Part shown: piece after piece, positions 11,032 through 59,903 of the stretch
Layout: each line of letters starts with the position of its first letter
Position numbering within the stretch: position 1 is the first letter of the stretch
Assembly (NCBI GenBank): GCA_000002445.1
Contig: CP000071.1
Coordinates: forward strand, 1,408,001-1,472,000
Reading direction: 5' to 3'
Source: Trypanosoma brucei
Lineage: Eukaryota
Length of the DNA stretch: 64,000 bases
Made by a program: the position numbers and the translations under genes
The notes under the pieces: model-generated
The model's database searches: none
The model's input: the letters and a program-made list of their open reading frames with translations, nothing else
Told to the model about the DNA's origin: nothing

Positions 11032-11243
11032 GGTAAGGTGGAAAGAGTCATAAGAAATGGCCGTATACACCGCAAAAAAAAAAACACACACACAAAAAAA
11101 ATACGTCTCGATGCGCTCTGCGGCCCAACAACAACCAGCGTTAATTAGTGTGGACGGGTACACCGCTTCCTTCCGCGGAAGCTCGACGTGCAGATCCTCC
11201 GAAATGGAAATATGCTGAAGCGACAATAACTAGGTACCCTTCC

Positions 11244-12482
11244 TCACGTCGTAGCGGTGTCGCGGTGCCTTTTTTTTTTTATTCCACGCACCCCACACTC
11301 AGCCTTAAGTTGCTCCACAAGTTCATCACACTCTCCCTGAAGCCGCCGTTCACGCTCCTCCTCGCACCCCAATCGTCCATATGCCGCTGACGACAGTGGA
11401 AGCGCTGAGCGCACGTTTGCCGTCCACTTCACCGTCTGCGTGGGTGGACACTGCCCGACACGGACACAAGCAGATCCCCACGTACTCCAACCATCGCTAG
11501 CGCGGGAAAAAAGTGAATTGCCTTTCTCCTTAGTCTGCAACACCTCTTCCACTCGAATATGCAAACGAGAACACGAAACGGAAACCCCTTGTCTCGGATT
11601 TTGCTGCGATTGAACTAGCTGAGGTTTCTTCAACCGCCTAAAGTTGGAGGAAAGCCAAAAGTTTGCAGCATCGTGTCTCCATGTTGCGATCGCGCCATCG
11701 TCCAAGTTGCGATCCCGTGATTGAAAAATGGCGGTGAGACCGTTCTCGTCTACATGAAGAGCAGCAATGAACAGGTCGCTCGGTGACTCACTCGTGTGCC
11801 CTTCTCCACTGTCTTCCGTCTCAGCGCTGGCAGCAGCTTCCGTATTCCATGCGTAACGCCGCATCCAAAATGGTTCTTCCCGCTGCAACAACGGTTCAAG
11901 GGGGCGATCGTTATCATACAAATCCACACGTGCCAACTGTGTGCCGCCGACGTAACACATAGTTTCATCAGGCGCAAGGGCTAGGCAACGTACAGGGAAA
12001 CCAACGCGTACTTCACAAAGAAGTGTGCAAGACGAAGTATCGAAAATAATGATGTGCCCCCCAACGCTGCATGTCGCCAGCCACGAACCGGTTGAGAAGA
12101 AGGCCATGCACGTTACCGCTAGCGTATGTCCATGCAGGCGGACCGCCCGCCCGTTCGTATTTGTAATCATACTACTGATCGGCTGGACGGCGGGTGTTGC
12201 GTCGTGCCCGGCAGAGGCAACAAGATACGCCGAGGAAGCAGCTAGGCAGTGGACCGGACCGTAGTGTAGAGCGCGGGCGTACACGCAATCACAGGTAATA
12301 TTTTCAGAGTCGGAAGGTGTAGCAGAGCCAATAAAAGCGTCACCGTCTGTATATGCAAAGGCCAACACACTCCCTGCGTCAGTGCCCACCACGACAGTGC
12401 AATTGACTGTCAACAAAGCGGTAACATAGGCACCTTCGTATAGACTAGCACCAAAGGCGTCTCCTACACCTAGCGTTGTCAT
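11244..12482 (-). CDS. WD40-repeat protein (~412 aa).
   Basis: The listed start at 12485 is GTG; the ATG is at 12482. WD-like repeats are present (GHTLAVTCMAF...GHIIIFD, VRCLALAPDETMCYVGG). No specific family recognised. Confidence 0.6.
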   Translation of the reverse strand: MTTLGVGDAFGASLYEGAYVTALLTVNCTVVVGTDAGSVLAFAYTDGDAFIGSATPSDSENITCDCVYARALHYGPVHCLAASSAYLVASAGHDATPAVQPISSMITNTNGRAVRLHGHTLAVTCMAFFSTGSWLATCSVGGHIIIFDTSSCTLLCEVRVGFPVRCLALAPDETMCYVGGTQLARVDLYDNDRPLEPLLQREEPFWMRRYAWNTEAAASAETEDSGEGHTSESPSDLFIAALHVDENGLTAIFQSRDRNLDDGAIATWRHDAANFWLSSNFRRLKKPQLVQSQQNPRQGVSVSCSRLHIRVEEVLQTKEKGNSLFSRASDGWSTWGSACVRVGQCPPTQTVKWTANVRSALPLSSAAYGRLGCEEERERRLQGECDELVEQLKAECGVRGIKKKRHRDTATT

Positions 12483-33901: not shown

Positions 33902-35230
33902 TCAACTCATAGCCGTGTAATTGAATTTTTCGCACACAGCAGCTAGTGAACGAACATTTTTAACAGAAATGGCAAGTTGCCGCGCAAAATTTATAAGGGC
34001 AACTCTCTCTCCTCTGTTTAGTTCCACCACATTCTCAGCGGAACCGAAGACAATTTTCAACGCGGTGGCAAGAGCAGCTGTTTCCAACTTCCCCCAAGCG
34101 CGGCACTTTTCACACGTGACGCAATCCATGAGAGTTGTAACATTGTGCACCACGCGCTTCATTTGCCGAACCAGTAGGTGCGCACCCGGAGACTCAAAAA
34201 ATTTTTGCTCGTCGAAAGTTGCTACGCGGAATAGCTTGCTGCTAAAAAGTTCCCCAATATTGCTGTAGAGACGCACATCTCCATCTGTAGCAGCGCCGTT
34301 GAAGCCAGAGTTATACAAACTTGAGTTAGCAAGAAATGCACGTTTGGTCTTCGCCAGAGCGCGAAGGACAAACTGGTAGACAACAAAAAGGTTCCTTATG
34401 AATTCGTCATTCTTAACGATGCGGCGGAACATGCCACAGTTAGGATAGAAAGATATATTGGGATTATTTAGCACACCTAGGCTGCGCAGCGGAGAGTCAC
34501 CCTTCGTATCATTATAAAAGAAAGCAGCCACATGCATGGTTATAGAAGTATGGAGCCCACTTAGAAGCTGCCGAAGTAAAGCCTTCTCTCTGTTTTCTAC
34601 ACCAGCCGTATCATTACTTGGAAGTCCGTCAATATTGCAGTTGTTATATACAGCCTGCCAAACCCGCGCTGCTTTCGGTCCCGAATATCCGGTGTTTGCC
34701 TCTGGGTTTTGGAGAAGATCCACATATGTTGCATCTCTATCTGGGTCGATCGGCTTGATCTCGTCCTCGAAACCTTTTGCTGCATGTTTGTCAGGGGCCG
34801 CACGACGTTCAACCGTGGAAACATCACTCATATCGTATGGGTATTTTAGTGTTTCGGGAATTCCACTGTCATCACAAGTGCAGATCTGGCATCCATTTGA
34901 ATCACATGTACAACTAGCCTCAGCGACCCAGTAACGACATTCCCTGTCCAGATTTACTTTAAAGTACCGAAAGTATGGGTGACTCGTTATGTTGTTAAGA
35001 AGGCCTGTAATACCCTCAGTGTTCTGACTGACCTCATCCATGGTAAGGGAACAAAACCCCTCCTTAAGGGCATTTCCTTTCTTGGTCCTTACATATGAGC
35101 CAGCCCCGGAATTGTTGGCTGAAATGTACATCCCAAAAAAAGAAACACCATCCAATTCAGCACGAAGTAAAATTTGCCAAACAAGTCCTAGAAGAACAGG
35201 AACTACTATCAATAATCGCATCTTCAACAT
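33902..35230 (-). CDS. ERO1: ER oxidoreductin 1 (ERO1), 442 aa with a signal peptide.
   Basis: The N-terminus MLKMRLLIVVPVLLGLV is hydrophobic. The CxxCxxC active site DCVTCEKCRAWGKLETAALATALKIV matches the Ero1 consensus. Confidence 0.85.
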   Translation of the reverse strand: MLKMRLLIVVPVLLGLVWQILLRAELDGVSFFGMYISANNSGAGSYVRTKKGNALKEGFCSLTMDEVSQNTEGITGLLNNITSHPYFRYFKVNLDRECRYWVAEASCTCDSNGCQICTCDDSGIPETLKYPYDMSDVSTVERRAAPDKHAAKGFEDEIKPIDPDRDATYVDLLQNPEANTGYSGPKAARVWQAVYNNCNIDGLPSNDTAGVENREKALLRQLLSGLHTSITMHVAAFFYNDTKGDSPLRSLGVLNNPNISFYPNCGMFRRIVKNDEFIRNLFVVYQFVLRALAKTKRAFLANSSLYNSGFNGAATDGDVRLYSNIGELFSSKLFRVATFDEQKFFESPGAHLLVRQMKRVVHNVTTLMDCVTCEKCRAWGKLETAALATALKIVFGSAENVVELNRGERVALINFARQLAISVKNVRSLAAVCEKFNYTAMS

Positions 35231-36192
35231 CTCCCGATGTGAATAGTACGATTAACCTACACGAACCACAGATAAAGAATTTAAAAAAAGGGTATCTATT
35301 TTTTAAAAAAAAATCGGATGCAGAGAGGTACCGTCATCAATTGCGGTCCCCAACAACTTTAAAAAACAGTAAAAGGTAACGACCTAGGAAACCCCTCTGA
35401 GTGAAGCTACATAATTGAATGGAAGTGCAACTGATGTCCCCCTCTGACATTCTGAAACGGTAGTCACTTTTAGGCCACGCGGCGACATATCCTAAAAGGA
35501 CGGTGATTGACAACAGAAAACTGATATCAAGCAACGTACAGTTTTAATTCACCAAACTGGGCATCATCACTTCCACCCAACAGTAAAGAAAAAAAATTCA
35601 GTGATGCGATGCCGGAACTTCTGCGGAAGGAAATGTTTAAGTAAGTTGCTCAATTTAAAAAAAAAAGTGGAAATTGTACTGGATTTTTAGAAAATGTCCT
35701 TAAGCATGTCACTCCGTTCGCCCAACATACCCCGGCCTTAGTACCAGGGTTGAAGTTGATTAAGTTTGCGGCGCCGTGACTTCTGTAACGATAGCACAGC
35801 ATATCTTCGACTCTGTCAACTGTGGTGCCACCGCTCCTCCACACGATGCGGCCACCACGCCACTGTTTCGAGTCCGGCTAAAAATAAAAAAACGAACACG
35901 GCTTTCCAAGGTGAGCCACCCCTTCCTTAAAGAGTTACCAGACAGTAGAGTTGGGTGGGCAGACATTGCAGTCGCCATAATGGCCAGCGCCTCAATCCGA
36001 CATAAGTACTAGTTTGTGTTTACCAACAGTCGCAGCCACACTCAGCACCACCCACCCATAATGGCAATTAGATGCGCAACACCGGCCTCAGCAGCACCAC
36101 CACTCAGGCATCCCCCTGAGTCGACGAAAGTTAAGCCCACATCTGCAATCGCGCACAACAAAGTCCCACGGACAGCCCGTGACGAAATATAG

Positions 36193-36206
36193 CCCCCCCC
36201 CCCCCC
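36193..36206. repeat. Homopolymer C14 on the plus strand (G14 on the coding strand of the leftward unit). A second C13 tract lies at 36415-36427.
   Basis: Read directly from the sequence. Both tracts sit in the C/A-rich block of the strand-switch region. Confidence 0.9.
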
Positions 36207-39200
36207 GATCGGCACTGCCACAATGTGAGGTAGTGCGACGCCACCAAAAACATTGAAGCGGCCCACCAGACACCCTCGGCCGGCTCGTCTGCTGGACCCC
36301 TTGTCTCCGTTTCCCCGCATTCATTGTTCACAAATGGGGTCCGTCAACACCACCTCCACCACGTCGCGCTTTCACTTGGTGACCGCATCCGTGCTCTCAC
36401 AGTGCCCATCGCCACCCCCCCCCCCCCTTGTCTACTACACGGAAACGGAGGGCCACCCCTCCCGATCAATCGAAAACAGTGAAGAAACATCAACACCAGT
36501 TTGCGCGACAAGGGGGGAAAGTCAGCACCACACCCCCTTTTGAGAAGCTCAGCCACAGGCTAACCCCTCCTCGCTCAAAGCCCTCAAACCATGGGGGCGC
36601 CCTCGCAGCCCGTCCCACCCACATCTCACAGTCACTGTTCTCGGGCAACATCCGGGCCGCCAGGAGCAAAGACAATGATAAAAAAAAATAAACCAGCAAA
36701 CCCTAAGGGCAGCAGCCCCCTTCGATCGAAAGAGCGGAAATACTTCGAATCAAACCAAAGCAATACGCAAGCATTTGTACCGACGCCCTGCCCCCACGTT
36801 CCATCTACCATCAACCGTCGGTACGTCGAACGGTGACAGACAGCTCGGCCTTTTCGCATTCTCTGTTGATTAGCATCTTCAACGGTACAAGCTTACACCT
36901 CCACTAACTATGGGAAAACGGCAACGCTACAACAAGAAATAGATCATCAGCCCGGGGACCCTAGTCATCCTTTGCTTGGACCGAAGCAAAGTTACACCAG
37001 GCCTTTCGAAGAGGCACCAGCGGCCCTTGAAGGCTCCCCGTCCACACACCCCAAAGACACTTCAGGCATTAGCTGGGAAACCGCCCTCTACATCTCAACA
37101 ACTCCCCCCTAGCATGCATGTAGCGTACGTCTCCTCCAACGTGTTGCGGGTGCCTCAACAGCGCATCTTAGAACTTTCGCCCCATTGGAAGAAGGCGGCC
37201 GTCCCGTAAAAGAGCCAGGTACTAGCGCTGAGAGGCGGCCGGAGACGCCGGGGGGCTAATCCTCACCTCGAAATAAGCCATCGTGACGCCAGCTACTTCA
37301 TTAAGGCGGTGGGATCCCATACTTCTCTTTTTTTATTGAGGGGAGCAGAGAAATGGCCATGTTCTACAAGTGCGCAAAACGGTTGACTGTGCCTGGGCCG
37401 AGCTGTCTTACGGTGCGTGGACTCCGTGGGTCACAATAATTCTCCGTTTTCCCATGGGCACATCCGATCGTGCCATAGGCATCTTGAACCGTACAATTGC
37501 AGTGACGAAATATTTTGGCACCCTGCGGTTCCCCACAACCGCCGCCTCGTTATGATGCAGTTCTAACAAAACCATGAAGAAAAGGTTTTTTTTAAAAAAA
37601 GAAAACATTATTATTATTTTTTTTTAGGGGGGTGGGTCCTGCGACGGGAGTGACTAGGCCCTACTGAATAAATTATTATATGCTATCCTCCTTAATTTTT
37701 TAATACAAACGGATAGCGAAGGTAAGTTTTCCTCAACTTCAACATGTAGATTAGCCTCTCTTTTTTTTTTCTGTGAACGTATTATTTGTTGTCCAAAAGT
37801 GCAGGAACAACTTGTTTGTCGTTTTCCTTCCAGACGGTTTTTCTCCATTTTGGAGTAGGGCAGGCGAGGCACTGACCGTTCCCTGTAAAAACACATCCTC
37901 AGGACCTGGTCTGTCAGGGGCCCTCGGCATGTCGACACCGCCTTTCACATCTGCCAGCCAGCCGGCCCACAATGTCTAAAAACTGCTGGCGCTGAGGATG
38001 GCTCGTGTGAGGCTGGATGGCGCGCACCGGCAACCCCCGTCAGATATATCATTGGGGACGTCCTCAAACACCCAAGAGGCCGACTATCCTAACGTGGTGT
38101 GGCAAGTTGGCGCCCCGCTGGAGGGGAAGAGAAGAGCCGAACCTCCATTCGTGATTTCAGGGCGAAGTTGGAAATCCAGAAATGGAAATGTGAGCGATCA
38201 TGCGCAACACTACTGGGACTCCGGGAAGAAAGTGTGTTTTCTGAGTGATGGCGCCTGAAAATACAAACTTTCACTTGCTTTCGGTGTCAATTGAATCTTA
38301 TTTCTCCTTAACAAGGATGCAGAACAGATTCCTCATCCCATTCTCTATGGAGATTAACGAAATGTGAGGTCTCTCAGTCATAAAAAGGTTGCTTCTCTTG
38401 AAAGCGCCTCATGGGGACACGGCGGCCTTTCGCCTTCCTTAATAGACGCTCATGAAGGTTGAGGAAGGCAGAATGAAGGCTTGCGCCCATTATCAATACA
38501 TAGTGTTGCCTTGCTGTAAAATGAAGAGTAACAGCGTATCAATATTCATTCGAAACAAGATATGAGTAATTGACGCTCCAAAAAATTATTATAGTCTTAG
38601 AAAGCATAACCATTACGGTGACGCCTGAAAATGGTGAACAGCTCGGTGTGGCATTTGCCTGCCTTCCCAATAACTCTAATGTAAGCATGTAAAGGTTGTA
38701 GCAATTAAAAGCGAGGATCAAGATTCAGTAGCCGTCGGAGCTGACGTAAAACAGCACTATTTTGCTTGAGACATCCGCATCGCAGAGGAGAACGGTGATG
38801 AAGCTGACGTTGAATTGATAGCTGTAGAAGAGTTTAACAGTTACCAACAATGAAACCCCAATTTGATATACAGCATTCGGAGGCGCACTGCTTTCAATAG
38901 AAGTTACCTGTTTTACGCACAGCAATGTAACATTTTGGAAAGCGATGCGAAACTTTTGCGGTTATTGTAGTTGGATATTGCTCAATGTAGCATTATAAAG
39001 GGATATGAAGAAAATTGTGGATTGTCCAAATTTTCCAAAACATTGTGTGCCAGAACTCGGTAAATAGGTAAAAACACGTGTCGATGGCAGTTGAAAACAT
39101 CAATGATGCCATTACATCTGTAGTGGATTAGACAGCACCAAAAAACAATTCATAGGAAGAAAATGTTGTTCCTCCTTCATTAGAGAAAGGAGGGTGTTGA

Positions 39201-39610
39201 ATATAACAGCTGTGAGGACATGCAGGAAGATGCACTTCAAAACTGCTAATGGATGAGACAAAGAAAAACTTCGTACCTTATTGAAAGAATTATTCACAGC
39301 ACCATTATTATAGATTCCTACCCTAATAATGGAAGAGGAACCCACCGAAAGAAAAGGGGAGCGAAGTCGCAGATCTTAATGAATATGTAAGCGAATCAGT
39401 CTACAAGAAGTCCAACAACTGAATTGAAGAGCACCTGTTGGCCAAAGAGCCTCTTTTTAAAACTGTTTATCGCTGCTAAACTGATAAATGCGGTAAAATA
39501 ATCATTGTCATGGAAAACGGTAGTGGGGAAGAAATTAACTACGAGAGATCAAAGGTGATGTTTACTTCAACTCTGCAGCTTCTTCCGAAGATGAGGCACC
39601 CTTTCTGATC

Positions 39611-39612
<2 letters not shown>

Positions 39613-39652
<40 letters not shown>
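39613..39652 (+). repeat. (TG)20 dinucleotide microsatellite.
   Basis: Read directly from the sequence. It is what produces the spurious ORF MCVCVCVC at 39614..40264. Confidence 0.95.
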
Positions 39653-39653
<1 letters not shown>

Positions 39654-40483
39654 AACATCATTCCACCACTCTCGAACAAAAGAATCAGCTAAAGACGTTG
39701 AACAATCTGGGCTGCTGGAACCAACGGGTGCTGTGTGTGAATTCATCGAGAGAGCACAGCTTAAGGGGCCTAAAAACTGGGTTCGAGAGCGACACAGCTA
39801 CGACGGTCAGGTTTCCGACAGGGGGACGCAGCACTAGCTCTGTTTTAGAGGTACAGAGCGCAATCGAGGCAGTGGAGAAACGCACCCGAAGCGTAGCAGC
39901 GTTTATAGACTATGTTAGGGCATTTGGCCAGGTGCAGCGCAACTGTGGCGTTCGAACGCTAGGGTGTTTCGGAGTGCTTATCACACTCGATATGGTAGAT
40001 AGGCAACTTCTCGCCACACGGAACAAAAATGTCCAGAATGCACAGTGTGCAGGCCGACGGTGCCAGGCGACGCACGGCACGCTGCGGGATTCGTTGTTTT
40101 GCAAGACCCTATTCTCCGGGGCAACAGAATGGGTGAGCGCGAAACCGAATAAGATCCCTGGACTCAGGGATAGTTTGTTTACCGGTATTATGGCCCTCAA
40201 ACCGTTGGGCTCGGAAAAGGCAGAACGGAGAGATACGCAGCAAAGGTGGAAGCTGGGGGTTTGATGACGATTGTTTCAAAGACGCTTTATAGAGTACCGG
40301 TAGAGAAAAAAAGGGTATCACCCGCATGGCGTGCGCACTGGGGACTCACTGCACCTTCGGGGTCCAGGATAAAAGATTAACGATACGAAGGCCTAAAACC
40401 CTTGAACCTCGGTTTTCAGTAAAAACAAAAACACAATTATCGCTTCTTTATCAGTTGCAGTAGCTCTTCCCATGTTATTTTCC

Positions 40484-40527
40484 AATTATTTTTATTATTA
40501 TTTTTATTATTATTATTTTTAATTTTT
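40484..40527. repeat. AT-rich (ATTATTTTT)-type low-complexity tract.
   Basis: Read directly from the sequence. Confidence 0.8.
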
Positions 40528-42519
40528 GCCGATTTGACCCCTCTAAGGGTGCAAAAGGTTACTCCAACCCTCTGGATATACCTACGAGGACAAATCTCTT
40601 CGGCGCTGAAAAGGCCGCCGGCATTTCACTGAGCTCTTTAGGCACTAAGGGTTGGGTTTGGCTCAAAATCTCTGCATAAAATTAAGGGAGGATAGAAAAC
40701 CCTCGTTGGGGCAGGTTGGAACGATGCTTTGCTGGGTCTGAGTCTCTTTTTTTCGCCCCAGCACAATACTGTTCCATTCTTTTGACCCACAGCAGGGACC
40801 ACAACGCCGGTAGCATCCCAGTTTCACGAGAAAAGCACGTGGAGCCAGCTTGCTATCCATCTGGAAAGTGTGTACTTTTTTGAAACACGGCGAACGAACT
40901 GGTGCTGCCTTGGAAAAGGCGCTTCACATGCAGCCGCTTAGGTAAATTTCTATTCCGTTTCTGGGGGAAGCGGTTTATGTGCAATCACAGGCTTCGTAAA
41001 ATAACCTCTTACAGAGTAAATAGGTGAAAGTACATCCTGCTATCTAAAAAACTATTTTTCTTTTTTTTTTTTGATAGCTGATTGTGTATAATTACAAAGA
41101 AACGTAAACGTATTCACATACCTGCGGGTGTGGACCCACCCTTCTCTAGTGGAAAGGATGAAGTGGGTGTGAGGTTTTACGCCTTAAAACAGGTAGAAAA
41201 CAGAAAGTGTTGGCCCACTTCCGATTTCCGATGTTATGTCCTTTTAATTGATAACATCGTCCTCTCACCACCGCAGTCCAAGTGCTTTGAGGAGAACCGT
41301 GAAACCTCCACGTCTTAGCAGAGCTGTTATTCCAATGCGGCCGTGCGGCTCGTTTCACCCCTCACACTTGGAGGCTCGGGGTGTCCAGACCCAGGGGCAG
41401 GTGACTTCTCACGCTAAGGTGCTAGTCGGCTCCCGGTCCCCCTTCGCACCAGGCTGTGTTCGTGTGGTAGGTCTCCAGTCGGTCCAGCTTTCCCTAGAAT
41501 GCTGTTTTGAGTGCATTTCGCAGCCACGTAAAACCACTGCCTTGTTCCGTTCCATTGCTATCCAGTCCGGGGAATTTGTGAAGCCGGTAGCGCTATCGGG
41601 GTGATGCTTCTGGCGGTGACGGTCTACCGCATGCCGGCCCTGTGATTCTCATAAAGCTCACCGCGCATAATAGGTTCCACTGGAAGATTGTTTTGGGGTG
41701 GGGATTGTCACTGCCTCCACGCCTACTTTCCCACTTATCATCCCTGTGGCACTGCCTTCAGTCCATCATCGCCCCCCTGACGGGCTGTTTTTTTTTTTTC
41801 CTTTCCCGATGGAGTGAACGGGGAACCACCTTCGATCTAGAGAATAGCTTTGCTAGAGAACGGTTTTCGCCTTATGGTGCTGAAAGCTGTGGTGGGAGGT
41901 GTGTGTGTGCATGTGTAACTACGTTGCTGACCCTCGCGAGCGGCGCCGCACATACTCTGCTCTGCCCCAATTCGCCGGTCCGGCCTCCGAGGAGTGCCCT
42001 TTGGTGAGGACTGGAGTGACTAGACGTGACCACGGCTGGGGTTGAGTCCCTTCCACGAGGAAATGATGGTTCGTGGCGCTTGGTATCGTTAATTTTTACC
42101 AGGTTGTACGCGTTGAGTGGATCTGCGTAAGCTTTGAGCCGTGGAGCGGTCCGTTGCCCCTCCCATTGGTAAAGCGGCTGTCGTTGACCACGTGATGCCC
42201 CTTTTGGCACTAGGTATATCGTGTGCCGGCGGGTGGTGTTTATGATTTCACTTGCGGTAGTTTGCGGGTCTCACATTGATGGTGTCTTGGGGGCGCGTGA
42301 GAAATCGCGTTGCGGCGTACTGCTGCCTGATCTGGCAACCTTTTTGTGTTTGACGCTGAGGGCAAGCGTGCCTATATTTTTCTAAACATGGGAGAGGTTT
42401 GTTTGCTTCCTTTTTTCCCAACTGTTGCGGCGCATGTTTTATTCGGGCTATGCTTGTGCAATGAATTCTTGTCCGCTTTCCGTCTGGGTTTACCCATCGT
42501 GCTTTAGGTATTTAAAGCG

Positions 42520-42828
42520 ATGACGTTTAAATTCTTTTACAATGTGCCGAGGCAGGTGCACTCTTTTAGAGGCGGGTCGCGCGGACCTCGCCGGGCAGAG
42601 GTGTTCAATCGCCTAACGCGTCAGCAGTTTCGACGGAGGTTGATGAGCGGAACCGCTGCTTCTAATGCCAAGAGCTGGGATGCACTGGACCGAAAGAGAA
42701 TGCAGCGAGACTCCGTTGTTGAGCATCGTCGGCTTAACGTTGCCCGCATGCCAGCGGCGGTGATAAGGCAGAAACTAAAAAGGGGGCCACCCCACAAAGG
42801 CGATGATAAGTATTTACTTCGACCTTAG
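42520..42828 (+). CDS. Candidate small basic protein (102 aa, Arg/Lys-rich), possibly the first gene of the rightward unit.
   Basis: True ATG at 42520. A poly-pyrimidine tract (gcttccttttttccc, about 42400-42420) with downstream AG dinucleotides lies within ~100 nt upstream. No homologue recognised. Confidence 0.3.
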   Translation: MTFKFFYNVPRQVHSFRGGSRGPRRAEVFNRLTRQQFRRRLMSGTAASNAKSWDALDRKRMQRDSVVEHRRLNVARMPAAVIRQKLKRGPPHKGDDKYLLRP

Positions 42829-44351
42829 CCATCGGGCTGCCATTTGTTGACGCGATCAACTCGTTATTCGGCTGACTGGATACATGCGGACGCTGTATGT
42901 TTTGGCTAACTACATTATTCCTTTTCTCTTTCCACGCACTTTGCTTACTATCTGTTCGGGGGGTTTCCTCGTTGGCATCTTACACGGAGGTTGATCTGGA
43001 AAGTAAATTTGTTGGACGTCTCCGGGAGATATGTACAATGCGGCTTTAGTGGAATGTAAGCGTATTTAGTTTTTATCGTGATGGACAAATGCATTTGTTT
43101 GTCTTGAATTATTGGGTGTGGTTGTGAACCATATGATGATTGTTGTTTTTCTCTAATCATTACTCTTGTGATGCAGGGATGTTGTGCATTGTCGGCTAAC
43201 TGCCATTGTTTCCTTTACAAGGGTTATTTCAAATCGTTGGTGTTTATTGCAAAGGTCGTTACGGCCGGGGTGGAGGTTAATGGAGCTTCTCTTTCAGCTT
43301 AATAACCAAAAAAAGAGGAGTATGCGTCACCTTTTTTGCTGCGTCATCAACACATCTTGTAGGAAATGTAGGGAATGACGTTATTATGTAGTTTGACGGA
43401 ATATTGTGAGGTTAACGCCATTTGACCAGGACAACCATTTTTGCTTTCTTGTTCACTTGCCTATTCTTTTCAAAGGGTTGCATGAAGGATGTATATTTAG
43501 ATCTGTTTTTATTTATGTTACGAGACTCCACCCCATTATAGAGTTTACGGGTCTTTCAAAGTAGCAAGATACCGATATAAAGACATTGGCATTGTGACGC
43601 ACAAGAGCGTCGTTGGTCTTAGTTTCGAGCGGGGTCCTTATGTTTTATGATTTGTTGACCGTGTGAGCAACTACTTGTTTCTCACAGTTGTAACGACTTA
43701 ATTGTTATTACTATTTTGTCGGGTGCTTTGTTCGATTGCCCACACATATTTTGAATCTGGTGATCACCAAGAAATGGCAAAACGAATCAAAAATTCCGTA
43801 TTTGGTTGTGTAAACTAATTTGCTGTCGAAGAAAGTATACACCGTAGATGAAACCTTCTCTATCTCTCCCTTAAATACACCGTACCGTACATTTTTTTTT
43901 TCAGATTTAGCTTGTGGACATATTTGGCTGAACATATGTGTGGAGTATGATGCAGCGTTGGAGATCCGATTTCTTCACTGATTTTGTTTGTGAAGGTTTC
44001 CGTCCATTTATTCTTACATGCAACATCGCGGAAGAGTGATTAAGTTTTTTCATTGTATCTTTAACTTTCATTTCTATTTTGGTTAAAAAATGAATAGATG
44101 AGTTGCGGTGGCGATGTGACAGAGGGACGATTGTGTTTTTTTATTTCTTATGTTGCTTTTTTAATTTTTTTGCCGCGATGTCAGTGTACACATATTAAAA
44201 TTCATATTAGTTTTGTTTGAGCACGACTTTATATTTTACTGAGTGGACTACTTGGATGGTTGGTTGTTTCTTCACTGTTGTGGCCAACGACTTTTTATAT
44301 CTTGCACTCACTCTGCACTGGGTTGTGGATTTACATTTTTAGACACAGTTA

Positions 44352-47300
44352 ATGTCTTCGGAGGCGGTAAAAAGACATATATTGGCTGCGATTCATACCC
44401 TGAATATTCCCTTGGACCTAGCACCAAGTTCGACCAAGGTGGATGAGGTTTGTTCTGCAGCGAAACTGCTTCGTAATCGCGTTCTTCGAGAAATCGCACG
44501 TGTTGAAAAGTCAATAGAAATGTTAAAGCAGAGGCAGTACGGTGACGCTGATGAGAGCGAGATGGACGAAGAGGCTATATCTGAAAATGTGGGGAGCTCA
44601 ATAGACACACATAATCTTACCAGGTACGATTTTATGTTTATAAGCGAAATGATGGTTATGGAAAATCTTGTTGTTCCGTTATTACTGGCTCACGGGATGA
44701 ACTTTGCGACTTCGCTTTTGCCACAACTGCTAAAGCTTCTCGCAGTAATGCTTCTACCTATTATACCGTGTTCTCATGAGGTACCACGTCAGCTAGATTA
44801 TGTTCGTCGTCTAATCGAGCGGTGTGGAACAGATGACTTTTTCTGGCTCTTGATTCAGTGTATTGTTCCGGTCACGGAGAAGCGCTCCAAAGGTGAAGCC
44901 CGAAAAGAAGACTCTATTCTTCTTGAAATTGTGCTAAAGATGATTGCTCTGTTTTTTACGGGTCCAAGAGAAAGTGTTGCGCAAGTTATCGGTGCCTTTG
45001 GCCGAAACCATGGGATCGAGCTGTTTCTTGTGGTACTGAATCAGAATTATGCTCGGTATGAACATAGAAATAACAAAGATAGCAATGATGTAGCGGTCGA
45101 TCCCATATCTCCCTCAGCCGGTACGAGTAATACAGAACGCTCTGGCGTGATTGTTCTTGATGGTGACACAGATGAGGAAGATGCGGTGGATTTGTCTGGG
45201 GAAAGCAACTCTGGGGAGGAATCAAGCGATACGGGATCCACTAATTCTGAGAGGTTTGGTCGAGTTTCAAACCACCTTAACGTTGATGATCAATACAGCG
45301 CGCGGATTGTCGAAATACTTGAAAGTGATGACCAGTTATGGAAGTGGAACACCCACATCATTACCGCGATGTCTGCAATACTTCGCTGTGCGCAATCGGC
45401 TGAACTTGCAAAACTAATATTTACCTCGAAATTCCGTCAGGGGTCATCCCAGCAGTTAGCTTCTCTGGCAGAAAATTCCAAGCGGTTTCGGGAATTTACG
45501 TCTGAGTCGAAGAAATGGAGACATGTTGCAAGAAGCAGGAATGGTGCCGTGAGTTCCAATGGTTTGCTTGTGCGTGGTACATCTTCACATCTGCAGGGAG
45601 AGGGAGGTGTGATTGGATACACGTCAACACTTCTAGGTTATCGAACAAAAGATCCTATTGAAAAGGTCCGTGAAATTGACTCAAAAAAAAGAGGCCGTTA
45701 TGTAAAAGGAACGTCTGACGATGCTTCCATCATATGTAACCTTTCTCTACCGACGAAAATTCAGTTGGCAGAACAATGTCTCTCGTTTATATGCTATGGA
45801 TTTGAACCCTTAAGCATTATGGTTTGGGATCGTCTGGCTAAATCGATTGCCTCCTTTAGAGACGCTGTGTGTGAACGGAAAGAGTTCATAGCGGGACGCA
45901 AATCGTCTGGGGAGGATGTTGAACTTCCGTCAGAGTTCGAGAAAAGTGTATACGAGTCGATGCAACAAGTTCTAAATTACCTGGAAATGTGTACCTCATT
46001 ACTACGTTACACCAGGGAAGCTGTTCGTTTGAAAAAAGAGGGAATCGATGATGAGCCTTCTCAGTTTTTTAATCAGCAGTGGAAGTGCATTTCAAGTGTA
46101 ATAACTCTTGAGCACATATTTAGCGGCTTTGAGCTGCTGCGTGTACTTTTAATGTCTCCAGATTTGAGGCGGCGGTTCGGCGTATGGACTGTGGCGAACT
46201 ATCTTGCCGAACTTTTTATGACTCTGAACCACCTGGTGGACGGCGACATAGTGGAGGACCCTCATGTGATTGGCGCCGCGCATGCTTTAGTCTCTTCAGT
46301 ACTTTACAAGGAGGAATATGTCCAGTTGGTGTTCGATACCATATCGAAGACGTCAACCAAGCCCATTTCTCCATACCGTGCCAGTGTGCTAGTATTACTG
46401 CTTTACTCCGTGTTGCGACTTATGGAGAAATGTAGTTTCGGCGGCCGTTTGTTATTTCCACGAAGGAAGAAGAAAGCGAGCAAATTCGTTGTTCATGAGA
46501 CGGAGGACAATGTAGGCATATGTTTTAATGAAGCAGATATGCCAATTGTTGAGTGTGACCCTCATGTTTCGTCCGAAGCAGTTAAAGATCGGCCAATCGC
46601 TAATGGAGAGATAACCGACCCATCAACTATTTCGTCATTGCAAATATCTTCAAATGTTATTTCGATGAATGAAGTGCCTGAGGGCAGCGGCAGAGTTGAG
46701 GAGTTATGCGCCGGAGACCGATCCGTTGCAGGTGAAAGTTGGGTTAACTCGACTCACAATGGCGAAAGGGAAGTGAACATGCGTCAATACTTCAAGCGCC
46801 TTTCCACCGGACAAAATGTTTCTGTATTGCTTTCGTCACTTTGTCACTGGAGAGCGAACGATTCGGATGTAAACGAGGGGTTGGAATTTTTGATTCGCTC
46901 CTTTATGGCCGAAGGTTGTGTTACCACATTGTTTAGTGCATCCTTCCTTATTACCATGAGGGATATTTTGACCAATGGTAGCGAAACACACCGTGGGTTG
47001 TATGAGGCATGTGACGAAGTTATTTATTTGTTTTTTAATCCCCCTTCTGCCAAGTTTTTTGACGAACGGAAGGAAATCGAGTTCGCGTCTTCTTCTGGTA
47101 TTTTACAGGGATCTGAATCATTTCTGGGATTTGAAGTGTCGTTGCGATGTGCCCGATCATTATTCTGCTTTAGTTCGACAGAGTACATGATTTTAGAGGA
47201 AAAGGGGTTTCCTGACTTCAGAGATTCCACTGTTATTCCCTTAGCGAGTGAGGGCACAGTGGTCAACGGCTCAGGGAAAGAAAGTGTCGAACTCGGTGTT

Positions 47301-54598: not shown

Positions 54599-54640
<42 letters not shown>
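54599..54640. repeat. (CA)21 microsatellite in intergenic sequence.
   Basis: Read directly from the sequence. Confidence 0.95.
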
Positions 54641-54643
<3 letters not shown>

Positions 54644-55532: not shown

Positions 55533-58500
55533 ATGGAGTACAAGCGATGCAACTCAAGCCGCACGACGGCGAGCATCAGTCGATCTCCTCAGCTACGCAC
55601 ATCTGCCACGTCAACACCAGTGCGCAGCGCGACACCAATGCGTACCCCTACATCGGCACGGAGTGGTGCTTCGAGCGCGCGCCGTACCTTGACGGGTACA
55701 GGTACAGGGAGCGGAGCATTGAGAAGCGTAGGCTTGGATGGCGCCTCCCCGAGGGCGAAAGGACCTGGTTTACCACGACCCATTGCCTATAAACGTAGCG
55801 GGACAGCTACCAGCGGCGGTCAAGTGGACAGCGGCAACGATATGAGCATGGTTAGCAGCAGGAGTGCAATCGGCGACAGCCCCAAAGGAAAGCGCGGGGC
55901 GCACAAGCCCGCAGTGGCAAAAACCGGCGGAAACGGACGTGTCAACGTCTATGCTCGAGTGCGTGCCTTCTCTCCAGCTGAAACAGCGGATAATCAGCAT
56001 TCGGCGGTGCATCTGAGTGACAACAAGGTGGAGGTTGTTGTGTCCCCCAAGAGCGTTTACACTTTCATGCTTGACGGGTGCTTTTCGAGCACTGGTTCCC
56101 CGTCGGATGAGGGCTTCGCATCACAGAGCAGTGTTTTCGATGCCATTGGCCGGCCACTGGCTGAGAACGCTCTAGCAGGTTACAACGCCGCAATTATGGT
56201 TTACGGACAAACTGGAAGCGGCAAGACGTACACGATGTTCGGCCCTCCAAAATCGTTGGGGACGGAGGAGCAGGGCCTTGTGCCACGAGTGTGTAATATG
56301 ATCTTTGAGCGGGCTGATGCTTGCTTGCAGAAGGGCATCACATGCCGTGTGTGCGTGTCTATGCTTGAAGTGTATCTGGAAGACGTGTTTGATCTGTTCA
56401 GCAACCGCAAACAAGTGACAGTGCGGAAGGACTATTTGGACAATTCCTTTCATGTTGTTGGGGCTAAGTCCATCCCTGTGAGGCAGTATAAGGATGTTGA
56501 AGAACTGTTGCAAAGGGCGGAGGCACTTCGAACATTTGCTGCGACCGCCATTCACGCTCGCTCCTCTCGTGCGCACGCACTGTTTCAACTAGAGTTGTAC
56601 ACTACCTTCGAGTCGACAGACATCGCGCCTCGTACGGCTAAGATTCTTCTGGCCGACCTTGCTGGGTGCGAGCGTATTAAACTTGCCCAAACAGAGACAG
56701 GCATTCCCTTTGAGGAGGCTCGGAACATCAATCTTTCGCTACTTTCATTGGGTTCGTGCATTGAGGCTGTTACCATGCGTAAGGGATCAAGTCAAAACAT
56801 TCCTGAGTTCCGTAATAGTACTCTCACTAAGTTGTTGAAGGAATACTTGGGTGGAAACAGCGTGTCTTCTATCGTTGTAACCGTTGGACCCAGCGTGCGC
56901 GATGCTCGTCTCAGCGTGCAATCGCTTCGATTCGCTGACCGTGCCATGAAGGTCGTGACTCATGCTAAGATAAACACAGTGAAACCCATTACCGAGCTTG
57001 ATGATGCAGATGGTTCCGAAGACAAGGTGCGTGAGGCTTATAACAAAAAGAAAGAGGCATTACAGGTCGAGTTTCAGGTGCAGAGCGAGTTGCAGAAGCT
57101 GCAGAATAAGATCACAATTTTGGAGTGTCAGCTAATGAACTCTGTGGATGACGAAGTTGTCGCTCGACTCCAGGAGGAAATATCTACCTATCAGAAGTCG
57201 CTTGCTGATGCTGACTTAGAGCTGCAGCAGCAGCGTCGTGTATTGTATGACAGTGAGGTGATGCTAGAGGAGCAACTAAAGGAACTGAACACGAGGATGC
57301 AAGAAATGATAGAGGAAAACGAAGAGGCAACAGAAAACCTCTTGGCCGAATGTCGAAAAAAACACACGGAGCGGCTTGAGGTAGAACAAAAGCGGCACGA
57401 AGAGGAGGTGGATGTCCTTTTAAAGAGTCACGAATTCGAATTGGAGAGAATCAACCAGCTTCTTCAAGATTCTGACACGAAATGTGCCGAACTCACGACC
57501 ACCTTGTTCAAAACTAAAGAGGATCTTCGCAAAACAGACGGTCTGGTAGATGAAATGCAGATGGCACTTGAAGAGCTTGGGGACGCATCAAAGGCAACCG
57601 AGACTGAGCTTTACGGCTATGTCGAGCAGCTTCGCAGTGAAAACAGTCGATTAAGCACCGCAATAGACACTCTCCGCCAACAGTTGAAAGAATCTGAAGC
57701 ATCCGTTGAAGATCGTGACAATCGTCTAAAGGAACATGAGGAATCATTGGATACCCTCCGCCAACAGTTGAAAGAATCTGAAGCATCCGTTGAAGATCGT
57801 GACAATCGTCTAAAGGAACATGAGGAATCATTGAATACCCTCCGCCAACAGTTGAAAGAATCTGAAGCATCCGTTGAAGATCGTGACAATCGTCTAAAGG
57901 AACATGAGACATCATTGGATACCCTCCGCCAACAGTTGAAAGAATCTGAAGCATCCGTTGAAGATCGTGACAATCGTCTAAAGGAACATGAGGAATCATT
58001 GAATACCCTCCGCCAACAGTTGAAAGAATCTGAAGCATCCGTTGAAGATCGTGACAATCGTCTAAAGGAACATGAGACATCATTGGATACCCTCCGCCAA
58101 CAGTTGAAAGAATCTGAAGCATCCGTTGAAGATCGTGACAATCGTCTAAAGGAACATGAGACATCATTGAATACCCTCCGCCAACAGTTGAAAGAATCTG
58201 AAGCATCCGTTGAAGATCGTGACAATCGTCTAAAGGAACATGAGGAATCATTGAATACCCTCCGCCAACAGTTGAAAGAATCTGAAGCATCCGTTGAAAA
58301 TCGTGACAATCGTCTAAAGGAACATGAGGAATCATTGAATACCCTCCGCCAACAGTTGAAAGAATCTGAAGCATCCGTTGAAGATCGTGACAATCGTCTA
58401 AAGGAACATGAGGAATCATTGAATACCCTCCGCCAACAGTTGAAAGAATCTGAAGCATCCGTTGAAGATCGTGACAATCGTCTAAAGGAACATGAGGAAT

Positions 58501-59903
58501 CATTGAATACCCTCCGCCAACAGTTGAAAGAATCTGAAGCATCCGTTGAAGATCGTGACAATCGTCTAAAGGAACATGAGGAATCATTGAATACCCTCCG
58601 CCAACAGTTGAAAGAATCTGAAGCATCCGTTGAAGATCGTGACAATCGTCTAAAGGAACATGAGACATCATTGAATACCCTCCGCCAACAGTTGAAAGAA
58701 TCTGAAGCATCCGTTGAAGATCGTGACAATCGTCTAAAGGAACATGAGACATCATTGGATACCCTCCGCCAACAGTTGAAAGAATCTGAAGCATCCGTTG
58801 AAGATCGTGACAATCGTCTAAAGGAACATGAGGAATCATTGGATACCCTCCGCCAACAGTTGAAAGAATCTGAAGCATCCGTTGAAGATCGTGACAATCG
58901 TCTAAAGGAACATGAGGAATCATTGAATACCCTCCGCCAACAGTTGAAAGAATCTGAAGCATCCGTTGAAGATCGTGACAATCGTCTAAAGGAACATGAG
59001 GAATCATTGGATACCCTCCGCCAACAGTTGAAAGAATCTGAAGCATCCGTTGAAGATCGTGACAATCGTCTAAAGGAACATGAGACATCATTGGATACCC
59101 TCCGCCAACAGTTGAAAGAATCTGAAGCATCCGTTGAAGATCGTGACAATCGTCTAAAGGAACATGAGGAATCATTGAATACCCTCCGCCAACAGTTGAA
59201 AGAATCTGAAGCATCCGTTGAAGATCGTGACAATCGTCTAAAGGAACATGAGACATCATTGGATACCCTCCGCCAACAGTTGAAAGAATCTGAGACAACA
59301 GTGGTGGTTTTGACCGCTGACTTGAAGCAACTGGAGGAGGAAATGTTTATTGACCAAGCGGACCTGAAAGAAAGAATCGCTTTTCTCGAGGTTGAGTTGA
59401 AAAGGTGCGAAGAAAAGGGGGCTTATTATAGTGCACTGGTTGATGAAATGCAAGCGGAGTTGCATTGCGCCAATGAACGGGTTGCTGCAATGTCTGACCA
59501 AGTTCAAAATATGGAAGTGCGAGTTTTTGATGTGTGTGGATATATGTTTGAGGCTTTTAGCGTGAAATGCCAAGATACTGTTTCTGCTTTTGCTTCCTTT
59601 ACCAAAGGTGTCACGGAGGACCTTACCAAAGGTACCACTGAGCGACTTAGGCTTTTGGCTGAGGTGGTTGAATTACGGTCGTCCACAGTCGCAAGGAAGG
59701 CGGCAACCCAAAGACGTGCGTCTGCGGTTTCGTCTTTAGTACAGTCTGCGCAGGAAATTCTCTCAAAAATCGCGGACGAGGTTGAGGACGCCGATAATTT
59801 TTCCGATCGATCAGCTGTGGTGGCTTCATTTGTAAATTCTCCAAAGGAATCCTGGGGTGCGGACTTATCTCCTCGCTTTACTGAGGAGTCTCTGACCTGC
59901 TAG
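55533..59903 (+). CDS. Kinesin-like protein, 1456 aa. It has an N-terminal S/T/R-rich extension, a motor domain, a coiled-coil stalk containing ~20 tandem 28-aa repeats, and a C-terminal tail.
   Basis: Motor motifs GQTGSGKTYTMFG, SSRAHALFQL and LADLAGCER are present. The repeat is TLRQQLKESEASVEDRDNRLKEHEESL[D/N]. ATG confirmed. Confidence 0.88.
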   Translation: MEYKRCNSSRTTASISRSPQLRTSATSTPVRSATPMRTPTSARSGASSARRTLTGTGTGSGALRSVGLDGASPRAKGPGLPRPIAYKRSGTATSGGQVDSGNDMSMVSSRSAIGDSPKGKRGAHKPAVAKTGGNGRVNVYARVRAFSPAETADNQHSAVHLSDNKVEVVVSPKSVYTFMLDGCFSSTGSPSDEGFASQSSVFDAIGRPLAENALAGYNAAIMVYGQTGSGKTYTMFGPPKSLGTEEQGLVPRVCNMIFERADACLQKGITCRVCVSMLEVYLEDVFDLFSNRKQVTVRKDYLDNSFHVVGAKSIPVRQYKDVEELLQRAEALRTFAATAIHARSSRAHALFQLELYTTFESTDIAPRTAKILLADLAGCERIKLAQTETGIPFEEARNINLSLLSLGSCIEAVTMRKGSSQNIPEFRNSTLTKLLKEYLGGNSVSSIVVTVGPSVRDARLSVQSLRFADRAMKVVTHAKINTVKPITELDDADGSEDKVREAYNKKKEALQVEFQVQSELQKLQNKITILECQLMNSVDDEVVARLQEEISTYQKSLADADLELQQQRRVLYDSEVMLEEQLKELNTRMQEMIEENEEATENLLAECRKKHTERLEVEQKRHEEEVDVLLKSHEFELERINQLLQDSDTKCAELTTTLFKTKEDLRKTDGLVDEMQMALEELGDASKATETELYGYVEQLRSENSRLSTAIDTLRQQLKESEASVEDRDNRLKEHEESLDTLRQQLKESEASVEDRDNRLKEHEESLNTLRQQLKESEASVEDRDNRLKEHETSLDTLRQQLKESEASVEDRDNRLKEHEESLNTLRQQLKESEASVEDRDNRLKEHETSLDTLRQQLKESEASVEDRDNRLKEHETSLNTLRQQLKESEASVEDRDNRLKEHEESLNTLRQQLKESEASVENRDNRLKEHEESLNTLRQQLKESEASVEDRDNRLKEHEESLNTLRQQLKESEASVEDRDNRLKEHEESLNTLRQQLKESEASVEDRDNRLKEHEESLNTLRQQLKESEASVEDRDNRLKEHETSLNTLRQQLKESEASVEDRDNRLKEHETSLDTLRQQLKESEASVEDRDNRLKEHEESLDTLRQQLKESEASVEDRDNRLKEHEESLNTLRQQLKESEASVEDRDNRLKEHEESLDTLRQQLKESEASVEDRDNRLKEHETSLDTLRQQLKESEASVEDRDNRLKEHEESLNTLRQQLKESEASVEDRDNRLKEHETSLDTLRQQLKESETTVVVLTADLKQLEEEMFIDQADLKERIAFLEVELKRCEEKGAYYSALVDEMQAELHCANERVAAMSDQVQNMEVRVFDVCGYMFEAFSVKCQDTVSAFASFTKGVTEDLTKGTTERLRLLAEVVELRSSTVARKAATQRRASAVSSLVQSAQEILSKIADEVEDADNFSDRSAVVASFVNSPKESWGADLSPRFTEESLTC
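57664..59290 (+). repeat. 84-bp (28-codon) near-perfect tandem array of about 19-20 copies inside the kinesin CDS.
   Basis: Read directly from the sequence. Copies differ mainly at D/N (gat/aat) and E/T (gag gaa / gag aca) positions, with one ENRDN variant. The array also generates the spurious antisense ORFs 57514..59298 and 57617..59233. Confidence 0.95.

What the first reader, a model, noticed from the sequence alone, without database searches (positions are those of the whole stretch)
55533..59903. Kinesin with ~20 near-perfect 28-aa tandem repeats in its stalk
An 84-bp unit is repeated about 19-20 times (57664-59290). It encodes TLRQQLKESEASVEDRDNRLKEHEESL[D/N]. Nucleotide identity is extremely high, with only two alternating variable sites (D/N and EE/ET) plus one EN variant. 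The 28-aa unit is a multiple of the heptad, so it should extend a coiled coil. Such highly immunogenic repeat-bearing motors are diagnostic-antigen candidates, and copy number may vary between strains. The motor also has an unusual ~140-aa S/T/R-rich N-terminal extension.
Basis: seen in the sequence. Interest (0 to 1): 0.55.

Follow-up and report, generated by a model that had tools for sequence, protein, structure and literature searches.

The report
KLIF kinesin with repeat stalk
This is the already-characterised Trypanosoma brucei cytokinesis kinesin KLIF (Tb927.8.4950); its 19 near-identical 28-residue stalk repeats are real and change quickly between strains, but published work indicates they are not needed for its function in culture, and nobody has tested them as an antigen.

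Summary
ORF 55533-59903 (+) encodes a 1456-aa kinesin. It has 19 full copies and one partial copy of an 84-bp / 28-aa unit (57669-59294, 98% identical).

The gene is not new. The protein matches T. brucei TREU927 XP_847325.1 exactly. Published KLIF (Tb927.8.4950) residues A145, G230, K231, H341, A347 and C379 all match, and published RNAi primers map to it.

The literature already covers the main features:
- The basic N-terminal extension is a second microtubule-binding site.
- A KLIF lacking those C-terminal domains still rescued RNAi in procyclic cells.

The repeat has a clean heptad pattern (L/V/L/L at one core position) and is strongly acidic. AlphaFold2 predicts one continuous helix, so a coiled-coil rod of about 80 nm is plausible. 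Dimerisation of the repeats themselves is untested.

What I add:
- Copy number and variant content differ between Trypanozoon assemblies (19, 16, 17 and at least 25 units).
- Orthologues carry their own arrays at the same stalk position, with periods of 14, 28, 46/53, 49, 53 and 60 aa. All are 0 or 4 mod 7.

The diagnostic-antigen idea is untested. KLIF is not the K39 orthologue.

The parts
55533..59903 (+). Complete KLIF gene (Tb927.8.4950), 1456 aa plus stop codon.
   Evidence: ORF. Exact match to XP_847325.1 / Q57UV7 of T. brucei TREU927. Published KLIF residues A145, H341, A347, C379 and G230, K231 all match. Published KLIF RNAi primers map to ORF nt 1144-1691.
55533..55919 (+). Basic, S/T/G/R/P-rich disordered N-terminal extension (aa 1-129). 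It is the published second microtubule-binding site.
   Evidence: Composition, net charge +16 and pI 11.8. The bioRxiv preprint 10.1101/2021.11.04.467292 reports that it binds microtubules and is required for bundling. The motifs ME[FY]KRxNSSR and GLPRP are conserved in orthologues.
55956..56954 (+). Kinesin motor domain (aa 142-474), with P-loop GQTGSGKT, switch I SSRAH and switch II DLAGCE.
   Evidence: Pfam PF00225 matched end to end, E = 5e-77. The closest solved motors are kinesin-3 (KIF13B, KIF14, KIF1A), E about 1e-53.
56955..57668 (+). Non-repetitive first half of the stalk (aa 475-712).
   Evidence: AlphaFold2 predicts helix at aa 602-678, a break at 679-685, then helix continuing into the repeats. 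The published construct aa 1-672 is a parallel dimer.
57669..59264 (+). 19 full tandem 84-bp / 28-aa units, TLRQQLKESEASVEDRDNRLKEHE[E/T]SL[D/N].
   Evidence: Net charge is about -4 per unit and -57 for the array. The array is about 80 nm long if helical.
59265..59294 (+). Partial 20th unit (TLRQQLKESE). This 3' junction of the array is shared with T. congolense (LRLQLKETE).
59295..59804 (+). C-terminal conserved helical segment (aa 1255-1424), the 'tail' of the literature.
   Evidence: Aligns with orthologue tails. AlphaFold2 with a 10-sequence alignment predicts one continuous helix over aa 1246-1424, with pLDDT mostly above 90.
59805..59900 (+). Low-confidence, probably disordered C-terminal 32 residues.
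   Evidence: pLDDT below 50 for model residues 180-212.

Best explanation
The ORF is KLIF (kinesin localised to the ingressing furrow, Tb927.8.4950) of Trypanosoma brucei TREU927.

**Published function.** KLIF is a slow, non-processive, dimeric N-terminal motor. Together with its basic disordered N-terminal extension it crosslinks and bundles microtubule plus ends, and it is needed to complete cytokinesis in procyclic cells.

**What the repeats are (inferred).** The 19 x 28-aa array makes up the distal half of the stalk. It most likely forms an acidic alpha-helical rod about 80 nm long, probably a parallel two-stranded coiled coil in register with the proximal stalk. The rod would act as a length-variable spacer between the motor heads and the C-terminal conserved helix.

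**How the array evolves.** It is maintained and remodelled by unequal recombination or gene conversion (concerted evolution). As a result, copy number and variant content change quickly between strains, and only the helical heptad phase is constrained, not the sequence.

**Shown versus inferred.** Shown here or in the literature: the gene's identity, the motor and N-terminal functions, and the dispensability of the C-terminal 'tropomyosin' domains for rescue in cultured procyclic cells. Inferred: coiled-coil pairing of the repeats, the spacer role, and the recombination mechanism.
For: **Identity.**
- Exact protein match.
- Six published residues match.
- Published primers map to the ORF.

**Helical, heptad character.**
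- One core position reads L/V/L/L in every unit, with a spectral peak at 3.5 residues.
- AlphaFold2 predicts a continuous helix over aa 686-935.
- Matches are to coiled-coil Pfam families and, among solved structures, only to tropomyosin, over 143 residues with equal spans in query and target.

**Concerted evolution.**
- Units are 98-100% identical at the DNA level, with only one synonymous difference.
- TREU927 carries N28 in 11 of 19 units. The gambiense and equiperdum arrays carry none, but have a K25 variant (gambiense only) and a synonymous AAG variant that TREU927 lacks.
- Copy numbers are 19, 16, 17 and at least 25.

**Phase constraint.** Orthologues carry different arrays at the same stalk position, with periods of 28, 60, 53, 46/53, 14 and 49 aa. 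All are 0 or 4 mod 7, that is, whole heptads or heptads plus one stutter.

**Dispensability.** KLIF lacking the C-terminal TPM domains restored growth of KLIF-3'UTR RNAi cells, whereas the G230A/K231A mutant did not (PMC9117871).
Against: - The second core position reads L, S, R, H. With a net charge of -4 per unit, this would weaken a parallel homodimeric coiled coil.
- A single-chain AlphaFold2 model cannot tell a coiled coil from a single stable helix.
- No dedicated coiled-coil predictor and no dimer model was available.
- The published rescue used ectopic overexpression, and the exact truncation boundary is not stated in the text I could read. Dispensability of the repeats specifically is therefore likely but not proven.
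- All copy numbers come from assemblies. DAL972 has a gap inside an array, and the equiperdum assembly has a frameshift.
- The mod-7 pattern rests on only about four independent repeat families and was noticed after the fact.
Confidence: 0.7

Rival explanations
1. The repeat array forms a single stable alpha-helix (an SAH-type rod) rather than a paired coiled coil. It would act as a monomeric, semi-rigid extension on each heavy chain.
For: Half the residues are charged and only 18% are core hydrophobics. The nominal d position is mostly polar (S, R, H). AlphaFold2 predicts a long isolated helix.
Against: Classical SAH domains are close to charge-balanced E/K/R tracts with dense i to i+4 salt bridges. 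This unit is net -4, has only about 3 opposite-charge i/i+4 pairs per 28 residues, and places L/V/L/L strictly every 7 residues. The proximal stalk (aa 1-672 construct) is already a parallel dimer, which favours continued pairing.
Confidence: 0.15
2. The array is kept because it is an immunodominant B-cell repeat antigen or decoy, which would also make it a useful serodiagnostic antigen.
For: From general knowledge, intracellular tandem-repeat proteins of trypanosomatids (K39, GM6, MARP, CRA/FRA) are often strong B-cell antigens. The papers retrieved are consistent with that. The repeat is hydrophilic and highly charged. Variant and copy-number turnover is fast.
Against: No report of seroreactivity was found for Tb927.8.4950 or its peptide. 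KLIF is confined to the FAZ tip and furrow, unlike antigens that are abundant. It is not the K39 orthologue. Equivalent arrays occur in insect-only trypanosomatids (Angomonas, Novymonas) that meet no antibody response, so immune selection cannot be the general cause.
Confidence: 0.1
3. The near-perfect array, or its copy number, is an assembly artefact of the reference genome.
For: A 1.6-kb array of 98%-identical 84-bp units is hard to assemble. DAL972 has a 100-N gap inside one array and an apparent partial duplication of the gene. Other assemblies break the gene into fragments.
Against: The array is found independently in three Trypanozoon assemblies, in frame and with the same boundaries. 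The literature describes repeats in the Lister 427 gene. Interspersed variant units give the TREU927 array a unique internal order. Its existence is therefore not in doubt; only the exact number could be wrong.
Confidence: 0.05

Closest known systems
KLIF (kinesin localised to the ingressing furrow), Tb927.8.4950, T. brucei
   Same: It is this gene. The protein is identical to the TREU927 entry. Published residue numbers and RNAi primers match. The published architecture also matches: a 126-aa basic disordered N-terminus, a motor, a stalk of about 800 aa whose second half is repeats, and a tail.
   Different: Nothing differs at the sequence level. My single-chain AlphaFold2 model shows the so-called 'small globular tail' as one continuous helix. 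The papers I could read do not describe unit structure, copy-number variation or the orthologue arrays.
Leishmania K39 kinesin antigen (LinJ.14.1180; rK39, rKDDR)
   Same: It is a trypanosomatid kinesin whose stalk carries a long array of near-identical, charged, helical repeats.
   Different: It is a different gene. K39 is on chromosome 14 with 39-aa repeats. The Leishmania orthologues of KLIF are LmjF.16.1460/1470, with 14-aa TEETLQETSAKLAD repeats. Seroreactivity is established for K39 and untested for KLIF.
Kinesin-3 motors with disordered N-terminal extensions (KIF14, KIF13B, KIF1A)
   Same: These are the closest solved motor domains, E about 1e-53. The KLIF authors themselves compare KIF14, which also has a disordered microtubule-binding N-terminus and a role in cytokinesis.
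   Different: KLIF is treated as an orphan kinesin. No FHA domain or other kinesin-3 accessory domain was found by Pfam. The switch I, switch II and RxRP substitutions are unusual.
Tropomyosin, a parallel two-stranded coiled coil
   Same: It is an acidic, uninterrupted heptad-based helix. It gives the only solved-structure matches for the repeats (E about 5e-6, 143 residues with equal spans in query and target) and a Pfam PF00261 match. This is the source of the literature's 'tropomyosin-like domains'.
   Different: The resemblance reflects composition and heptad pattern, not homology. There is no actin-binding periodicity and no evidence of shared ancestry.

Membership tests
Kinesin superfamily | A complete motor domain matching the family profile. 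| tested here: met
   PF00225 positions 1-327 of 327, E = 5e-77, 259 bits against a cut-off of 29.3. PDB kinesin motors match at E about 1e-53.
Kinesin superfamily | Nucleotide-binding P-loop GxxxxGK[ST], and switch I and switch II motifs. | tested here: met
   GQTGSGKT with G230 and K231. Switch I is HARSSRAH and switch II is DLAGCE, with the published deviations H341, A347 and C379.
KLIF (Tb927.8.4950) | Sequence identity with the T. brucei gene studied under that name. | tested here: met
   Exact match to XP_847325.1. Residues A145, H341, A347, C379, G230 and K231 match. RNAi primers from PMC6495339 map to ORF nt 1144-1691.
KLIF (Tb927.8.4950) | [quoted passage not shown] | not testable with these tools
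   Taken from the literature only.
Leishmania K39-type kinesin antigen | Orthology with LinJ.14.1180. | tested here: not met
   The best Leishmania relatives are named LmjF.16.1460/1470, whereas K39 is LinJ.14.1180. I did not align against the K39 sequence itself.
Leishmania K39-type kinesin antigen | A 39-aa repeat unit. | tested here: not met
   The unit here is 28 aa. The Leishmania orthologues of this gene have 14-aa units.
Leishmania K39-type kinesin antigen | Recognition by sera of infected hosts. | not testable with these tools
   No report was found in the held literature. The key tandem-repeat antigen papers by Goto and colleagues are not held.
Two-stranded parallel coiled coil | Heptad periodicity of apolar residues. 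| tested here: met
   L6, V13, L20 and L27 occupy one heptad position in every unit. Spectral power is 3.8 at period 3.5, against 0.27 or less at the other periods tested.
Two-stranded parallel coiled coil | Both a and d core positions mostly apolar. | tested here: inconclusive
   The second core position reads L2, S9, R16, H23, so only 5 of 8 core residues per unit are apolar.
Two-stranded parallel coiled coil | Dimerisation of the segment. | not testable with these tools
   Only single-chain AlphaFold2 was available, giving a continuous helix. The published dimer evidence concerns aa 1-672, which lacks the repeats.

The most novel reading that the evidence does not exclude
The distal KLIF stalk may be a fast-evolving, length-tunable acidic rod found across trypanosomatids. 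On this reading each lineage has amplified its own unit from the same ancestral stalk segment. Selection would preserve only helical phase (period 7n or 7n+4) and negative charge, not sequence. Array length would then set a physical parameter of microtubule crosslinking. Alternatively, the acidic rod (net -57) might fold back on the basic N-terminal microtubule-binding extension (net +16) to regulate it. A practical by-product would be a variable-copy strain marker and a possible Trypanozoon-specific repeat antigen.
Probability: 0.2. Interest if true: 0.4.

Novelty: already known. Interest (0 to 1): 0.2.

Why it matters
Little changes for the field. KLIF, its N-terminal extension and the presence of stalk repeats are all published.

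Three modest points are useful:
- The annotated 'tropomyosin domains' of KLIF are simply this 28-aa array.
- The array differs in copy number and variant content between T. b. brucei, T. b. gambiense and T. b. equiperdum assemblies. Reference gene models at this locus are therefore unreliable, and the array could serve as a typing marker.
- Orthologues across trypanosomatids carry different arrays at the same position, with heptad-compatible periods. This argues for a structural constraint on phase rather than on sequence. It also argues against host immunity as the general cause, because insect-only species have arrays too.

Serodiagnostic use remains an untested idea.

Tried and rejected
- **Reverse-strand ORFs.** The ORFs of 594 and 538 aa across the array were rejected as periodic, stop-free artefacts. 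The plus-strand frame is continuous with a kinesin motor and matches a database protein.
- **Second homologue search.** A search with the last repeats plus the tail returned nothing, because the candidate list was swamped by low-complexity words. It gave no information on other strains.
- **Exact-protein contig look-up.** The TREU927 protein is not on record. I used the gambiense and equiperdum proteins instead.
- **Antigen literature.** Searches for the gene ID, the repeat peptides, LinJ16.1750 and African-trypanosome tandem-repeat antigens found no test of this protein. The relevant papers by Goto and colleagues are not held. I recall that a chromosome-16 Leishmania kinesin was among their tandem-repeat antigens, but I could not verify this and do not use it as evidence.
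- **Tail alignment.** Aligning the tail against full-length orthologues misaligned. I redid it with trimmed tails.
- **Fold search of the tail.** Not run, because the model is a single helix and structural matches would be meaningless.
- **tRNA scan.** The scan of the whole window found none.
- **K39 orthology.** Rejected on gene identifiers and repeat length.


Full report
**1. The observation**

Tandem Repeats Finder reports a single array at 57672-59293 with period 84 bp, 19.3 copies, 98% matches, no indels and a score of 3083. A seed-extension search gives the same 84-bp spacing throughout. The array lies inside one long ORF, 55533-59903 on the plus strand, encoding 1456 aa.

In frame, there are 19 complete 28-residue units at 57669-59264. 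A 20th unit keeps only its first ten residues, TLRQQLKESE, before diverging.

Only five nucleotide positions vary among the 19 units:
- nt 3 is a synonymous change found only in the first unit.
- nt 43 gives D15N in one unit.
- nt 73-74 change GA to AC, giving E25T in seven units.
- nt 82 gives D28 in eight units and N28 in eleven.

The one exception is that the variants are not regularly alternating. The two long reverse-strand ORFs over the array are what any stop-free periodic sequence produces, and I disregard them.

**2. Identity of the gene**

Pfam matches the kinesin motor profile end to end at aa 142-474 (E = 5e-77). The whole protein is an exact match to 'kinesin, putative' XP_847325.1 / Q57UV7 of Trypanosoma brucei brucei TREU927, on a 2.48-Mb contig.

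The literature identifies Tb927.8.4950 as KLIF, the 'kinesin localised to the ingressing furrow'. Three independent checks tie the window ORF to that gene:
- The residues singled out in the biophysical study (A145 in the RxRP motif, H341 and A347 in switch I, C379 in switch II) are all present at those numbers.
- G230 and K231, mutated in the JBC 2022 study, are the P-loop residues here.
- The RNAi primers published for nt 1143-1690 of KLIF map to ORF nt 1144-1691.

The neighbouring genes fit a trypanosome polycistronic arrangement. They include a family-B DNA polymerase, ERO1 and a WD40/EML-like protein on the minus strand, and then a strand switch.

**3. What is already known about KLIF**

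From the preprint 10.1101/2021.11.04.467292:
- KLIF is a slow, non-processive, double-headed parallel dimer that crosslinks and bundles microtubules.
[quoted passage not shown] - A small tail follows the stalk.

From the Li laboratory papers:
- The C-terminal part is described as two 'tropomyosin-like' domains. My Pfam scan shows that these are matches of the repeat array to PF00261.
- Ectopic KLIF lacking these C-terminal domains restored growth of KLIF-3'UTR RNAi procyclic cells. The P-loop mutant did not.
- In bloodstream forms, KLIF knock-down causes only a moderate growth defect and no cytokinesis defect.

**4. Structure of the repeat**

In every unit, L6, V13, L20 and L27 occupy the same heptad position. 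The partner core position reads L2, S9, R16, H23. Spectral power of hydrophobicity is 3.8 at period 3.5, against 0.27 or less at the other periods tested (3.0, 3.6, 3.67 and 4.0).

Half the residues are charged, and the net charge is -4 per unit. The array totals about -57, whereas the N-terminal extension is +16 with a pI of 11.8.

Single-sequence AlphaFold2 of aa 601-936 gives helix at 602-678, a short break at 679-685, and an unbroken helix from 686 to 935 through eight units. Mean pLDDT is 82.

Against solved structures, the repeats match only tropomyosin (E about 5e-6). The match spans 143 residues in both the query and tropomyosin.

Taken together, this supports a helical rod about 80 nm long (542 residues x 0.1485 nm) that is compatible with a coiled coil. 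It does not prove pairing. The half-polar core and strong negative charge leave room for a single-helix alternative.

**5. Variation within Trypanozoon**

I retrieved DNA of the locus from two other assemblies.

T. b. equiperdum (CM010679.1) has 16.3 units. A 1-bp frameshift in unit 12 splits the gene model.

T. b. gambiense DAL972 (FN554971.1) shows the following:
- A KLIF start followed by 25 units, running into a 100-N gap.
- The sequence then restarts inside the motor domain and continues through a second array of 17 units plus the partial unit, to the normal 3' end.
- This could be two alleles laid in tandem, a real partial duplication, or a misassembly.

Variant content also differs sharply between the arrays:
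- N28 is in 11 of 19 TREU927 units and in none of the gambiense or equiperdum units.
- A K25 variant (gambiense) and a synonymous AAG codon (gambiense and equiperdum) are absent from TREU927.

In the BLAST comparison, the aligned locus, including its unique flanks, is about 98% identical. This is the signature of rapid array turnover by unequal exchange or conversion.

**6. Orthologues**

A search with the non-repeat N-terminal 712 aa finds clear full-length relatives in many species. These include T. congolense (69% identity over 99% of the query), T. theileri, T. cruzi, T. rangeli, T. conorhini, T. vivax, Leishmania, Leptomonas, Novymonas, Lotmaria and Angomonas. More distant relatives occur in other kinetoplastids.

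The orthologues share the N-terminal motif ME[FY]KRxNSSR, the motor and the C-terminal helix. Many of them carry their own tandem array immediately upstream of that C-terminal helix, with different units:

| Species | Repeat period (aa) |
|---|---|
| T. congolense | 60 |
| T. vivax | 53 |
| T. cruzi, T. conorhini | 46, with a 7-aa GQIEQLE insertion variant giving 53 |
| Leishmania, Novymonas | 14 |
| Angomonas | 49, and 56/77/133 |

No array was detected in Lotmaria, Leptomonas pyrrhocoris or the bodonid-grade relatives.

Every period is 0 or 4 mod 7, meaning whole heptads or heptads plus one stutter. With roughly four independent unit families, the chance expectation is about (2/7)^4, or 0.007. 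This is a post-hoc estimate.

The T. brucei unit resembles the second part of the T. congolense unit (LRQQLKESE..RDNRLKE against LRLQLNEME.RDVRIRE). Only 6 of 500 shuffles score as well. Both arrays end at the same junction, LR.QLKE[ST]E. This suggests descent from one ancestral stalk segment that was later remodelled.

Arrays also occur in Angomonas and Novymonas, which, from general knowledge, are insect-only trypanosomatids. That argues against antibody pressure as the general cause.

**7. The antigen idea**

I found no paper in the held library that tests Tb927.8.4950 or its peptide serologically. The key tandem-repeat antigen screens are not held.

The K39 antigen is LinJ.14.1180, with 39-aa repeats. 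The Leishmania orthologues of KLIF are named LmjF.16.1460/1470 and carry 14-aa repeats. The analogy is therefore one of architecture, not orthology.

KLIF's restricted localisation at the FAZ tip and furrow makes a dominant antibody response less obvious than for abundant cytoskeletal repeat proteins. The idea is reasonable but untested.

**8. Verdict**

The gene is the known kinesin KLIF, and the features flagged are already in the literature. The coiled-coil reading is plausible and partly supported. The antigen reading is unsupported. The comparative pattern (lineage-specific, phase-preserving, rapidly turning-over arrays) is a modest addition. I rate novelty as 'already known' and interest as low.

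Noticed in passing
L001 (T. b. gambiense DAL972, FN554971.1) 1622-9399: The KLIF locus is assembled as a full 5' copy with 25 repeat units running into a 100-N gap (5900-5999). A second, 5'-truncated copy follows, restarting inside the motor domain, with 17 units. This could be two alleles placed in tandem, a real partial duplication, or a misassembly. The deposited gene models (1426 aa and a 1132-aa 'fragment') are unreliable.
   Followed up: partly
L002 (T. b. equiperdum, CM010679.1) 8001-11650: KLIF is split into 524-aa and 519-aa gene models. A 1-bp frameshift sits inside repeat unit 12 and is probably a long-read consensus error. The array has 16.3 units.
   Followed up: partly
window 59265-59900 (KLIF aa 1245-1456): The literature calls the C-terminus a 'small globular tail'. 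AlphaFold2 with a 10-sequence alignment predicts one uninterrupted helix over aa 1246-1424 (pLDDT mostly above 90), followed by about 32 disordered residues. This suggests the coiled coil simply continues, although a dimeric helical bundle cannot be excluded.
   Followed up: partly
window 55533-55919 and orthologue N-termini: The disordered N-terminal extension is poorly conserved overall. It does keep short motifs from Trypanosoma to Leishmania: ME[FY]KR[CTS]NSSR at the very N-terminus and, in Trypanosoma, GLPRPxx[FY][KR]R. These are candidate docking or phosphorylation sites.
   Followed up: no
window 54599-54641: A perfect (CA)21.5 dinucleotide microsatellite lies in the intergenic region about 0.9 kb upstream of the KLIF start codon.
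   Followed up: no
window 1-3538: There is a tandem DNA duplication with a 1701-bp period at 99.8% identity (1-1837 against 1702-3538), plus a further 305-bp copy at 4687-4991. This is probably a tandem gene array at the edge of the window. The identical 301-aa plus-strand ORFs listed there may be antisense to the real genes.
   Followed up: partly
window about 35230-44352: All large ORFs up to 35230 are on the minus strand and all from 44352 onward are on the plus strand. The GC-skew sign flips near 38 kb. Together these indicate a divergent strand-switch region of about 9 kb with no ORF of 250 aa or more. No tRNA genes were found anywhere in the window.
   Followed up: partly
P0012-P0024 (Leishmania donovani/infantum orthologues): The number of 14-aa TEETLQETSAKLAD units differs widely between L. 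donovani-complex assemblies. Proteins range from 793 to 971 aa, with about 2 to 7 copies. One model (P0015) reads through the array in a wrong frame. The Leishmania orthologue is therefore as assembly-sensitive as the T. brucei gene.
   Followed up: no
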